Shown piece by piece: positions 50,801 to 53,800 of a DNA stretch of 64,000 bases; position 1 is the first letter of the stretch, and each line of letters opens with the position of its first letter. Location of the stretch: NCBI RefSeq assembly GCF_009914755.1, contig NC_060930.1. One strand, 5' to 3'. The notes under the pieces are model-generated. The model was not told the DNA's origin. It saw nothing but the letters and a program-made list of their open reading frames with translations, and did no database searches. The position numbers were made by a program, and so were the translations under genes. Source of the DNA: the human T2T-CHM13v2.0 reference genome, Homo sapiens.

Positions 50801-53800
50801 CTGTTTCTTCTTGTGGTTCTTTTTGGAACCTTCTATAACTCTAAACCTCTGTTTGTCAGCTTCTAATGGTGTCTGTTGACTCTCTTTTAAAAGATGAAAG
50901 CTGTCCTCACCTGTGCTGTTCTCCTCTCCTCTTTCCTCTGCCTTGGCTTTGTTAGTTCTATTTCTGTTTCTTCTGTTGACTACTTTTAGAGCATTTGGTG
51001 ATATTCACTAAGCTCTGTTCTTGTCCCATCACCTTCAGGCAGCTTTCCCTTCCTGCCACCTGCCCCTGGTTTGGGCACTCCTCCTCTCGTGCGTGCAGTA
51101 CTGCAGCTGCCACTCCGAGGTCTCCTTGCCATGTCCCTTGTCACACGTTTGGTTAGTCCCACACAGTAATTAGAATGATCCTCTTGAGATATAAGTCCCA
51201 CCATGTCGCTCTTGCTGAAACCTTCAATGCAGTGAGCGCCCATCTCATTGGGACCTACAGGCTGAAGTTCTTCCTCTGATGGACATGACCCCCGTGTTGT
51301 CTCTAATAACCTCACTTTCACTCTGTTCCAGCCACACGGGGTTTCTGTCTTTCTCGGGTCATGTCGGGCTTATGTGCCTCGGGCCCTTTGCTCATGCTGT
51401 TCTCTGCCTGGGATGCGCTTTACTGGGTGCCAGGATGGTCAGTGATTCCATTTCTCTCAGAGTCTATTCACAGGTCCCCTTCTCGGTCACGCCTTCTCTG
51501 GCTCCACTGTCTAAAATTTCAACAGCTGCCTCTGCCCCCCGAACTTCATATCCCCCTTATCTGCCTTTTTTCCTTCAGCTCTTACTTCCATCAAATACAG
51601 TATGTATTTTTAAAAGTCTTATCTTGTTCACGGTCATTTTCTTCCACAGGTAATTTTGGTAAACTTTGTAAGATTGATGATGTTTAATACTGTTTTGTTT
51701 AATACAGTACCCCCAGTTTAGCACACAGCTTTTGAATGAATGACCAGTTTTTATTCCCCTCTGAAGCGCTAAGAGCTGCCGCTGAGGTGGCATCTGTAGC
51801 TGCTCCCGTTCCTGCTCCGTGGTGGCAGAGTGTGTGTCTCACTCACTGTTAATATTGCTCCTGGCATGGGGTTGGTTCCCAGTTACTGTCTGTATTTGGG
51901 ATTTGTGTAGTTAGTGAACCTTTAGCCTGTGCAGAAAGGTCAGCAAGCCCATTTTAATTTCAGAATTTCAGTAACTGCTGGCGGCCTTGGTTTTAAACAA
52001 CAGGTGGCGTGCGGCTGCCCCGGGCATGGCCCCTGCTGTGTGTGCTCCTAGCATCTTGGCTGCTTACCTTTGTCACCAGCAAGTTCCACTTCTCAGTGGC
52101 CTGAGCACAGACGGCACGCACTTTGCAGACTTGAGTTTTTCTGTTAAAATTTAAATTTTTTTTTAAGTGAGCCTAATAGTTTCCTGAACTATTATGTTCA
52201 GGGAAGTTATGTTGTTGCTGATTCTGATGGGGTGTGTGTGTGTGTGTGTGTGTGTGTGTGTGTGTGTGACAGAGACAGAGAGAAGTCGAGTCTAAAGTTC
52301 TGTCAGGCTTAGACTATGCCTGAATACTTGAACGTTTCTAGACAGTGCCCAATGTTTAAAGAGAATACGACCAAGCCTAACTAACTGCGGGTTTTCTTCT
52401 TTTCAGAGATGGGGCTGGCAACTCCTTCGACCTCTCGTCCCTGTCAAGGTACAGTGACAACTGGGAAGCCATCACTGGGACGGGGGACCCGGAGCACTAC
52501 CTCATCAATGTCTGCAAGTCTCTGGCCCCGCAGGCTGGCACTGGTGAGAGAGGGCCTCCTCGTGGGGTGGTGTTTGCAGTGAGTGTATCACAGGCCAGCA
52601 CTGGTGAGAGGGGGCCTCCTCGTGGGGTGGTGGTTGTAGTGAGTGTATCACAGGCTGGCACTGGTGAGAGAGGGCCTCCTCGTGGGGTGGTGTTTGCTGT
52701 GAGTGTATCACAGGCCAGCACTGGTGAGAGAGGTCCTCCTCGTGGGGTGGTGGTTGTAGTGAGTGTATCGAAGGCTGGCACTGGTGAGAGAGGACCTCCT
52801 CATGGGGTGGTGGTTGCAATGAATGTATTGAAAGCTGGCACTGGTGAGAGAGGGCCTCCTCGTGGGATGCTGTTTGCAGTGAGTGTATTGAAGGCTGGCA
52901 CTGGTGAGAGAGGGCCTCTTCATGGGGTGGTGGCTTGTCATGAGTTTATCAGGGAAGATCAAGTAGGATGGGGATTCTTTGGAGGCGCTTTACTCTCTGC
53001 AGCATGGACGTGGTTCGGCCGAGAAACAGCAGGACGAAGAATGATTTAAGGGTGTTAACAGTTGATCCCTAGTATGGCCCAGGGTAAATCAGTGCTGAGG
53101 ACTGCTGGGAACATGATAACCCTTTCTGAACATGAGGAGATGAAGATATAATAGATAGAAATAATAGCCATGGTGAGGAATCCTTCTTAGCAGGTAGAAG
53201 ATGGGGGGTGTGACGTGGAGGTCTTGGTGTGTGCCTGCGTATGTTGAGAGTTGTATGGTCGGTCCTTTTGTGATGCAGGGACAGCTCACTCAAACCTGCA
53301 GTGGTTGGCTGAGACTGGATGTCAGCTGTACATGGGAAACCAAGGGCACCTCCAGGGATCTTGGTACCACTCATGGCCCCTCGGAACCCTGAAGATGAAA
53401 CTCATCCCATGTTCGTGGAGTTTCATACAGCCCCACCTGTATCTTGGGTGGCTCACCTCAAAGGCGGTGTGGTTATTTTTAGCTGCAGAAGGTGGTTCCA
53501 TCCTCTGTGTGGTTTGAGGCTGTGGTTCCACTTCCCCTTGCTGCGTTGTGCTGTGCAGACTTCGACAGTGGCTGTACCCCTGTGGCATGGGACTAGTTCT
53601 TCACCCAGGGCACATGGCACAGGCATTTTAGGGACTGGGAAACAGGCAGAATTCTTGGTAGCTTCTTGAATAAAGAAGGTGCATGGACGTAGGCCATTTA
53701 AAATGTTCCTCTGTCTTAATTTGGGAATATAACCTTCATCCTATATGGGGTTCAGAAAGAATTTCGACTGCTACAGCCTAGCTATTCCTCTACACTCACG

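What the first reader, a model, noticed from the sequence alone, without database searches (positions are those of the whole stretch)
52531..52932. Minisatellite built from the exon 30 donor: seven identical, in-frame 5' splice sites at 60-nt spacing
Seen in sequence: the repeat unit includes the last 13 nt of exon 30 and the start of the intron. GCACTG|GTGAGAG therefore occurs after 52543 (the canonical donor), 52603, 52663, 52723, 52783, 52843 and 52903. This 13-mer is invariant in all seven copies while other unit positions diverge. The period is exactly 20 codons with no stop in the IGF2R frame. Each downstream donor would splice to exon 31 in frame and insert 20, 40 ... 120 aa of a [10 protein letters not shown](F/V)(A/V)VSVSQA(S/G)T-type repeat between T1417 and E1418 in domain 10, next to IGF-II-binding domain 11. 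Inference: this may be a copy-number-tunable isoform ladder or U1 decoy array. If only the first site is used, some mechanism must choose it over six sequence-identical competitors. Several units also carry a second donor-like |GTGAGT 35 nt in, which would shift the frame.
Basis: partly seen in the sequence, partly recalled or inferred. Interest (0 to 1): 0.88.

Follow-up and report, generated by a model that had tools for sequence, protein, structure and literature searches.

The report
Splice-donor-repeating minisatellite at IGF2R exon 30
A 60-base stretch covering the end of IGF2R exon 30 and the start of the next intron is repeated seven times, giving seven identical splice-donor signals; this layout is already known from other human genes, where normally only the first signal is used.

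Summary
A gap-free 60-bp x 7.0 tandem array lies at 52531-52951. Its first unit holds the last 13 nt of exon 30 plus the authentic donor. The 13-mer GCACTG|GTGAGAG recurs exactly seven times at 60-nt spacing (0.07 matches expected by chance). The IGF2R frame is open through the array, so every downstream donor would add a multiple of 20 codons.

This is a known kind of locus: a minisatellite whose first monomer spans an exon-intron boundary. F7 IVS7, IFI6, CBS, LMNB2 and PDGFA are listed as such in PMC1557585. Minigene work on F7 showed that the most upstream of several identical donors wins and the others stay silent but usable. All 3 RefSeq IGF2R transcripts end exon 30 at the first site.

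The invariant 13-nt run has P about 0.11, the donor 9-mer P about 0.03, and an open 20-codon unit P about 0.43.

The most likely reading is a near-neutral old duplication with six latent, in-frame cryptic donors. I found no description of the IGF2R array in seven text searches. RNA, population and primate data were out of reach, so minor use of downstream donors is not excluded.

The parts
52407..52543 (+). IGF2R exon 30 (137 nt). It ends in phase 1 after codon T1417. Its last 13 nt are the start of repeat unit 1.
   Evidence: RefSeq NM_000876.4 exon table and CDS arithmetic; sequence.
52531..52951 (+). Minisatellite of 60 bp x 7.0 copies. Units start at 52531, 52591, 52651, 52711, 52771, 52831 and 52891. 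Unit 7 has a 1-nt insertion near 52932.
   Evidence: TRF; unit table and pairwise identities; gap correction. It occupies a single place in the CHM13 genome.
52541..52549 (+). Authentic exon 30 donor, CTG|GTGAGA (-3..+6).
   Evidence: Annotated exon end 52543. Predicted U1 duplex energy is -8.1 kcal/mol, 23rd of the 34 annotated donors in the window.
52601..52609 (+). Pseudo-donor 2, identical 9-mer. Use would add 60 nt / 20 aa in frame and give a 197-nt exon.
52661..52669 (+). Pseudo-donor 3, identical 9-mer (+120 nt, 257-nt exon).
52721..52729 (+). Pseudo-donor 4, identical 9-mer (+180 nt, 317-nt exon).
52781..52789 (+). Pseudo-donor 5, identical 9-mer (+240 nt).
52841..52849 (+). Pseudo-donor 6, identical 9-mer (+300 nt).
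52901..52909 (+). Pseudo-donor 7, identical 9-mer (+360 nt, 497-nt exon).
52579..52584 (+). First of five secondary donor-like GTGAGT hexamers. The others are at 52639, 52699, 52759 and 52879. Each begins 35 nt after a main cut site and is out of frame.
   Evidence: GT scan with U1 duplex energies of -7.4 to -7.6 kcal/mol; the motif is absent from units 5 and 7.
53047..53049 (+). First in-frame stop (TAA) when reading from exon 30 into intron 30, 168 codons past the exon end.
54026..54216 (+). Exon 31. Its acceptor at 54026 is the single 3' splice site that all seven donors would join. Intron 30 is 1482 nt.

Best explanation
This is a minisatellite born from a tandem duplication of 60 bp: the last 13 nt of exon 30 plus the first 47 nt of intron 30. 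It was later amplified to seven copies, and one step was a two-unit (120-bp) duplication. It belongs to the known class of minisatellites whose first monomer spans an exon-intron boundary and so reiterates the 5' splice site.

In normal splicing only the first, authentic donor after 52543 is used. Once the exon 30 acceptor is recognised, the first usable U1 site downstream closes the exon. This is exon definition, or the 5'-to-3' positional dominance shown for F7. The six identical downstream sites are removed with intron 30.

Those six sites are latent but competent cryptic donors. If the first site were lost, the next would most likely take over. Because the period is 20 open codons, the product would carry 20 extra residues in a domain-10 loop after ...[13 protein letters not shown] instead of a frameshift.

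Shown here: the architecture, the identity of the sites, the frame, and the annotation. Inferred: the order and age of the duplications, the selection mechanism (by analogy with F7), and the behaviour on loss of site 1.
For: Architecture. The array is 60 bp x 7.0 with no indels. The first unit contains the annotated exon end. Seven exact copies of the 13-mer lie at 60-nt spacing.

History.
- Units 1 and 3 share 59 of 60 positions, and units 2 and 4 share 57 of 60. Other pairs among units 1-6 share 49-55, which points to a two-unit duplication.
- The CpG column 32 reads A in units 5 and 7, as expected for unconstrained decay.

Usage. All 3 RefSeq IGF2R transcripts end exon 30 at 52543.

Exon size. 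Donors 2-7 would give exons of 197-497 nt, against 88-257 nt for the 34 exons in the window.

Precedent (PMC1557585).
- In F7 IVS7, five to nine identical sites compete for one acceptor and only the most upstream is used.
- The pseudo-sites work when the upstream ones are inactivated.
- Sites strengthened to a consensus value of 91 still do not compete.
- The introduction says LMNB2 (100-bp units) and PDGFA (81-bp units) also use only the authentic site.

Same layout in this assembly. F7 has 37 bp x 6.1 with TGG|GTGGGT six times at 37-nt spacing. IFI6 has 12 bp x 24.8 with CAG|GTAAGG 14 times.

Weak extra support. The predicted probability that +1..+6 is unpaired is 0.32 for donor 1 and 0.03-0.09 for donors 2-7.
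Against: - No RNA data could be consulted. Absence from a three-transcript annotation does not exclude minor or tissue-specific use.
- In two class members, IFI6 and CBS, the two pseudo-sites nearest the authentic one are used as well.
- The donor 9-mer has no variable column in any unit while 18 of 60 columns vary (P about 0.03). That would fit some constraint on the pseudo-sites.
- The F7 paper's Discussion says that earlier duplicated-site experiments by different groups gave opposite results, so upstream dominance is not universal.
- The accessibility contrast largely vanishes for -3..+6: donor 1 is 0.017 and donor 3 is 0.017.
Confidence: 0.7

Rival explanations
1. Minor in-frame isoforms (IFI6/CBS type). 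Pseudo-donor 2, and perhaps 3, is used at a low or tissue-dependent level. This would yield IGF2R with 20 or 40 extra residues between T1417 and E1418. The number of units might modulate it.
For: - All sites are identical over 13 nt and have the same predicted U1 pairing.
- The frame is open (0 stops in 140 codons), so the products would escape nonsense-mediated decay.
- Exons of 197 and 257 nt lie within the range of the gene's exons.
- The insertion point follows the INVC strand in a stretch that varies among the receptor's repeated domains (alignment).
Against: - 0 of 3 RefSeq transcripts use these sites.
- No named protein of 117-372 aa contains the repeat peptide, though that is a limited blank.
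- The class members with longer units (37, 81 and 100 bp) use only the first site.
- The inserted peptide is hydrophobic (VVFAVSV) and has no relatives.
Confidence: 0.2
2. Splicing-enhancer or U1-recruiting array. The repeated U1 sites and G-runs downstream of a mediocre donor raise the efficiency of exon 30 definition, or they protect intron 30 from premature cleavage and polyadenylation. They are retained for that reason.
For: - The donor ranks 23rd of 34 by predicted U1 pairing.
- The array holds 12 G-runs of 3 or more, 2.9 per 100 nt, against 1.7 per 100 nt in the rest of intron 30.
- An AATAAA lies at 53669.
- The donor 9-mer is invariant, nominal P about 0.03.
- That G-runs downstream of donors act as intronic enhancers is established knowledge, recalled rather than tested here.
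Against: [quoted passage not shown]
- The scan-corrected statistic for the invariant run is P about 0.11.
- Pseudo-sites have decayed in other class members: the commonest donor-like 9-mer is kept in 14 of about 25 IFI6 units and 5 of about 18 CBS units.
- No binding data were available.
Confidence: 0.1
3. Chance resemblance or assembly artefact: there is no real repeated donor.
For: None found.
Against: - TRF score 607 with no indels.
- Seven exact 13-mers against 0.07 expected.
- The array is a single, unique place in a telomere-to-telomere assembly.
Confidence: 0.01

Closest known systems
F7 intron 7 (IVS7) 37-bp minisatellite (Borensztajn et al. 2006, PMC1557585)
   Same: The first monomer spans the exon-intron junction. 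The authentic donor is followed by strictly identical pseudo-sites. One acceptor serves all of them. In CHM13 there are six identical TGG|GTGGGT sites at exact 37-nt spacing, against seven at 60 nt here.
   Different: - The unit is 37 bp with 4 exon nt, against 60 bp with 13 exon nt here.
- 37 is not a multiple of 3, so most F7 pseudo-sites shift the frame. All IGF2R pseudo-sites are in frame and stop-free.
- The F7 array is 96% matched, against 87% here.
- F7 usage has been tested experimentally. IGF2R usage has not.
IFI6 (interferon-inducible 6-16) 12-nt minisatellite
   Same: It is a minisatellite reiterating a donor, and downstream sites add in-frame multiples of the unit. This is the closest precedent for an 'isoform ladder'. 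CHM13 holds 12 bp x 24.8 copies.
   Different: - The sites are only 12 nt apart.
- The two pseudo-sites next to the authentic one are used constitutively.
- Only 14 of about 25 units keep the commonest 9-mer.
- I did not see the primary paper; it is not held.
CBS intron 13 31-bp VNTR, LMNB2 ~100-bp minisatellite and PDGFA intron 4 minisatellite
   Same: The F7 paper lists all three as the same class of boundary-spanning minisatellites. In CHM13 the CBS array is 31 bp x 17.8 and the LMNB2 array is 105 bp x 11.9.
   Different: - CBS uses two pseudo-sites, while LMNB2 and PDGFA use only the authentic site.
- I did not locate the authentic donors in these arrays, because no exon table was available for those chromosomes.
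- In PDGFA, TRF found only about 2 copies of 97-118 bp in CHM13.
ABCA7 intron 18 VNTR and other splicing-associated tandem repeats (PMC5954066, PMC10078293)
   Same: These are intronic tandem repeats near a donor whose length is associated with splicing. For PMC5954066 I saw the search listing and abstract only. For PMC10078293 I saw passages.
   Different: Those arrays are not described as starting inside the exon and copying the authentic donor. No length-splicing association is known for the IGF2R array, and IGF2R occurs 0 times in the main text of PMC10078293.

Membership tests
Minisatellite whose first monomer spans an exon-intron boundary (F7 IVS7 / IFI6 / CBS / LMNB2 / PDGFA class) | Head-to-tail array of units in the minisatellite size range | tested here: met
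   60 bp x 7.0 copies, 87% matches, no indels.
Minisatellite whose first monomer spans an exon-intron boundary (F7 IVS7 / IFI6 / CBS / LMNB2 / PDGFA class) | The first unit contains the annotated exon end and authentic donor | tested here: met
   The array starts at 52531 and exon 30 ends at 52543.
Minisatellite whose first monomer spans an exon-intron boundary (F7 IVS7 / IFI6 / CBS / LMNB2 / PDGFA class) | [quoted passage not shown] | tested here: met
   7 of 7 units carry the identical 13-mer and 9-mer.
Minisatellite whose first monomer spans an exon-intron boundary (F7 IVS7 / IFI6 / CBS / LMNB2 / PDGFA class) | Only the most upstream site, or the first few, is used in vivo | not testable with these tools
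   No RNA data were available. The annotation is consistent: 3 of 3 RefSeq transcripts end exon 30 at 52543.
Minisatellite whose first monomer spans an exon-intron boundary (F7 IVS7 / IFI6 / CBS / LMNB2 / PDGFA class) | Copy number varies between individuals (VNTR) | not testable with these tools
   Only one assembly was available. Supplements of tandem-repeat catalogues are closed.
Alternative tandem 5' splice sites giving in-frame isoforms (IFI6 type) | Transcripts or proteins that use the downstream sites exist | tested here: inconclusive
   0 of 3 RefSeq transcripts. No named protein of 117-372 aa carries the repeat peptide. Full-length isoforms of other species could not be searched.
Protein-coding VNTR | Repeat units are translated in the reference protein | tested here: not met
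   The CDS leaves the array after 13 nt of unit 1. The remainder is intron 30.
Interspersed repeat or transposon-derived array | Related copies occur elsewhere in the genome | tested here: not met
   The array matches only itself in CHM13. The tool warns that matches in closed regions are not shown.
Structured RNA gene in the intron | Match to an Rfam family | tested here: not met
   0 matches at E <= 1 over 52000-54300 on both strands.

The most novel reading that the evidence does not exclude
The six downstream donors are kept intact by selection and are used at a measurable, perhaps tissue- or copy-number-dependent level. This would give IGF2R molecules with 20-residue multiples inserted in a domain-10 loop next to the IGF2-binding domain 11. 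It would be a natural, length-polymorphic splice ladder in a growth-regulating receptor.
Probability: 0.08. Interest if true: 0.6.

Novelty: new member of a known kind. Interest (0 to 1): 0.3.

Why it matters
- Variant interpretation. A change that destroys the exon 30 donor may not be a null allele, because the next identical site would give an in-frame 20-residue insertion. Short reads and variant callers can also misplace calls among seven near-identical units.
- A natural model. Every pseudo-site here is in frame and stop-free, so any use would survive nonsense-mediated decay and be directly visible. That makes the array a cleaner model than F7 for how the spliceosome chooses among identical 5' splice sites.
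- Copy number. If the number of units varies between people, it becomes a ready-made allelic series.
- Limit. None of this makes the locus surprising to a splicing specialist.

Tried and rejected
- Relatives elsewhere in the genome. The array and exon 30 each match only their own place, so there is no dispersed family and no processed pseudogene that could have recorded an alternative junction.
- Protein search with the read-through peptide. Residues 44-186 of window:52408-53046 gave no named hit. 563 candidates were scored and 7437 sample-only candidates were left out. Only proteins of 117-372 aa were eligible, so full-length isoforms were not examined.
- Full-length receptor as query. I tried to obtain one through PDB chain ids. 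The tool does not take them, and I dropped the step.
- Rfam over 52000-54300: nothing.
- Recombination-hotspot 13-mer. One match with up to 1 mismatch in L001, outside the array, against 3.2 expected. Rejected.
- RNA-structure masking of the pseudo-sites. Donor 1 is more open over +1..+6 but not over -3..+6. I kept this only as weak support.
- Open frame as a sign of design. Rejected. A 20-codon unit of this composition is stop-free with P about 0.43. The minus-strand frames carry only 1-3 stops in 139-140 codons and hold ORFs of 84-104 aa.
- Literature on the IGF2R array.
  - IGF2R + VNTR: 31 papers, 20 listed.
  - IGF2R + minisatellite: 9 papers.
  - IGF2R + tandem repeat + splice: 72 papers, 25 listed.
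  - IGF2R + intron 30: 0 papers.
  - IGF2R + exon 30: 0 papers.
  - IGF2R + VNTR + splicing: 11 papers, 10 listed.
  - Judging the listed rows by title and abstract start, none concerns this array. One preprint checked by passages was irrelevant.
  - One search was poorly framed: the 15 rows listed held no IGF2R.
  - A recalled CUL4A VNTR lead was not found and is not used.
  - Supplements of tandem-repeat catalogues, which may list this locus, were closed.
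Full report
**What is there**

Reading 52300-53200 and running TRF show one clean tandem array at 52531-52951. It has period 60, 7.0 copies, 87% matches, no indels and score 607.

The RefSeq table places exon 30 of NM_000876.4 at 52407-52543. 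The first unit therefore consists of the last 13 nt of the exon plus the first 47 nt of intron 30.

The 13-mer GCACTGGTGAGAG occurs exactly seven times on the + strand, at 52538 and then every 60 nt to 52898. Shuffles of the window gave a mean of 0.07 matches at up to one mismatch. Two further one-mismatch matches lie outside the array, at 41171 (minus strand) and at 56190 (the exon 32 donor).

The array matches no other place in the CHM13 genome.

**Frame**

- Exon 30 ends at CDS nt 4252, which is codon 1417 plus one base.
- Codon 1418 is G|AG = E.
- Translating from 52408 gives ...[13 protein letters not shown] followed by [40 protein letters not shown] and five further, progressively more diverged units.
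- The CDS frame has 0 stops in 140 codons over the array. The first in-frame stop is TAA at 53047.

Each downstream donor would add a multiple of 20 codons between T1417 and E1418.

**How remarkable is that?**

- From the array's base composition, a 20-codon unit is stop-free with probability about 0.43.
- The other two + frames carry 10 and 8 stops. The three minus-strand frames carry only 3, 3 and 1, and hold ORFs of 94, 104 and 84 aa.
- A period divisible by three has a prior of one in three. This figure is my own arithmetic, not a call result.

An in-frame, open repeat is therefore not evidence of design.

**The invariant donor core**

Comparing units without gaps gives 34 of 60 invariant columns and one run of 13. 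That run reaches P about 0.005. Most of this comes from a 1-nt insertion in unit 7, which throws its tail out of register.

- With units 1-6 alone, P is 0.20.
- With unit 7 gap-corrected, 18 of 60 columns vary, and a run of 13 or more arises in 11% of column shuffles.
- For the donor 9-mer CTG|GTGAGA, defined in advance, the chance of no variable column is about 0.03.

This is a nominal hint of constraint and no more.

**Donor strength**

All seven sites have the same predicted pairing energy with the 5' end of U1 snRNA, -8.1 kcal/mol. That ranks 23rd among the 34 annotated donors of the window, so this is a middling site.

The secondary GCA|GTGAGT-type site, 35 nt after each main cut site, is present in units 1, 2, 3, 4 and 6. 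Its energies are -7.4 to -7.6 kcal/mol, and it is out of frame.

**History of the array**

- Units 1 and 3 share 59 of 60 positions. Units 2 and 4 share 57 of 60. Other pairs among units 1-6 share 49-55.
- The most recent visible event was therefore a duplication of two units (120 bp), now differing at 4 of 120 positions.
- The CpG in ...CTCGTGG... has become CA in units 5 and 7, the usual neutral decay.
- With recalled primate substitution rates, the 4 in 120 divergence suggests an age of tens of millions of years, with a very wide error. This is inference. No other primate sequence was available.

**What kind of thing it is**

A text search led to Borensztajn et al. 2006 (PMC1557585). I read its abstract, outline, introduction passages and Discussion. 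The paper describes exactly this architecture as a class.

- Class members. [quoted passage not shown]
  - F7 IVS7: 37 bp, five to nine copies.
  - IFI6: 25 pseudo-sites, the two nearest used.
  - CBS IVS13: two pseudo-sites used.
  - LMNB2: 100-bp units, only the authentic site used.
  - PDGFA intron 4: 81-bp units, only the authentic site used.
- Findings from 50 F7 constructs.
  - The pseudo-sites are functional.
  - Pseudo-sites strengthened to a consensus value of 91 still do not compete.
  - No intronic auxiliary element is needed.
  - Exon skipping rises as the first usable site moves further away.
  - The result was the same in three cell types.
- A caution from its Discussion. Earlier duplicated-site experiments by different groups had given opposite results.

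**Comparators in the same assembly**

I fetched the five genes from CHM13 and ran TRF on them.

| Gene | Array in CHM13 |
|---|---|
| F7 | 37 bp x 6.1, 96% matches |
| IFI6 | 12 bp x 24.8 |
| CBS | 31 bp x 17.8 |
| LMNB2 | 105 bp x 11.9 |
| PDGFA | about 2 copies of 97-118 bp |

- The F7 donor 9-mer recurs 6 times at exact 37-nt spacing.
- The commonest IFI6 donor 9-mer recurs 14 times in about 25 units.
- CAG|GTGCGC recurs 5 times in about 18 CBS units.

Pseudo-sites are therefore not generally preserved in this class.

**Is the first site the one used in IGF2R?**

- All 3 RefSeq transcripts (one mRNA, two XR) end exon 30 at 52543.
- Downstream use would be in frame and so would not be hidden by nonsense-mediated decay.
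- Donors 2-7 would give exons of 197, 257, 317, 377, 437 and 497 nt. The 34 exons in the window span 88-257 nt.
- The predicted local probability that +1..+6 is unpaired is 0.32 for donor 1 and 0.03-0.09 for the others. Over -3..+6, donors 1 and 3 are equal at 0.017.
- The array is G-rich (40% G) with 12 G-runs, 2.9 per 100 nt, against 1.7 per 100 nt in the rest of the intron. Recalled knowledge says G-runs downstream of a donor help it and G-runs inside an exon hinder it. That would favour the first site.
- None of this replaces RNA data, which were not available.

**Protein context**

The exon 30 peptide matches solved structures of the receptor: 6um1/6um2 (2499 aa), 6z32 (737 aa) and 6z30 (302 aa). 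The junction follows the ...INVC... strand, in a stretch that differs among the receptor's repeated domains in that alignment. An insertion there is conceivable.

I could not model it, because joined sequences may not be typed. That domain 11 binds IGF2 is recalled knowledge.

**Verdict**

The competing-sites problem is real, but it is already known and largely answered for this architecture.
- The best-supported reading is a near-neutral boundary-spanning minisatellite with six latent in-frame cryptic donors.
- I found no description of the IGF2R array in the searchable text, so I file it as a new member of a known kind.
- Not excluded: minor use of the second or third donor, as in IFI6 and CBS, and a modest enhancer role for the array.

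Noticed in passing
window 44202-44525 (intron 22): A second minisatellite, 40 bp x 8.3. Its consensus shares an exact 14-mer, GTTGCAGTGAGTGT, with the exon 30 array. This is the part that carries the secondary donor-like GTGAGT. 0 of 500 shuffles reached the alignment score, and six consensus pairs were tested. As a single BLAST hit of the array against the window it has E = 0.32. Common origin or coincidence is unresolved.
   Followed up: partly
window 41101-41364 (intron 20) and 55153-55486 (intron 31): Two more minisatellites, 76 bp x 3.5 and a G-rich 54 bp x 6.1. That makes four minisatellites within about 15 kb of this gene. The 76-bp array holds the minus-strand one-mismatch match to the donor 13-mer at 41171.
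   Followed up: no
window 52232-52268: A perfect (GT)18.5 microsatellite ending 139 nt upstream of the exon 30 acceptor. UG repeats near acceptors can bind splicing factors (recalled knowledge). I did not examine this.
   Followed up: no
window 53543-53612 and 53669: RefSeq lists a functional element, 'enhancer active region_25401', inside intron 30. An AATAAA lies at 53669.
   Followed up: no
window 56190-56202: The exon 32 donor, GCACAG|GTGAGAG, is identical at 12 of 13 positions to the exon 30 donor 13-mer. This is probably consensus plus chance.
   Followed up: no
window 51000-55000: The annotation file lists no masked repeat of 100 bases or more here, although TRF finds a 421-bp array. 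Pipelines that rely on that masking will treat the array as unique sequence.
   Followed up: no
L006 5179-5511 (PDGFA, CHM13): TRF finds only about 2 copies of a 97-118-bp unit in the PDGFA gene body. The F7 paper's introduction cites 16-18 repeats of 81 bp in intron 4. This may be an allele difference, a TRF threshold effect, or a different locus.
   Followed up: no
window 52497-52962, minus strand: ORFs of 94, 104 and 84 aa run through the array in the three minus-strand frames. I used them only as a control for how easily this repeat stays open.
   Followed up: partly
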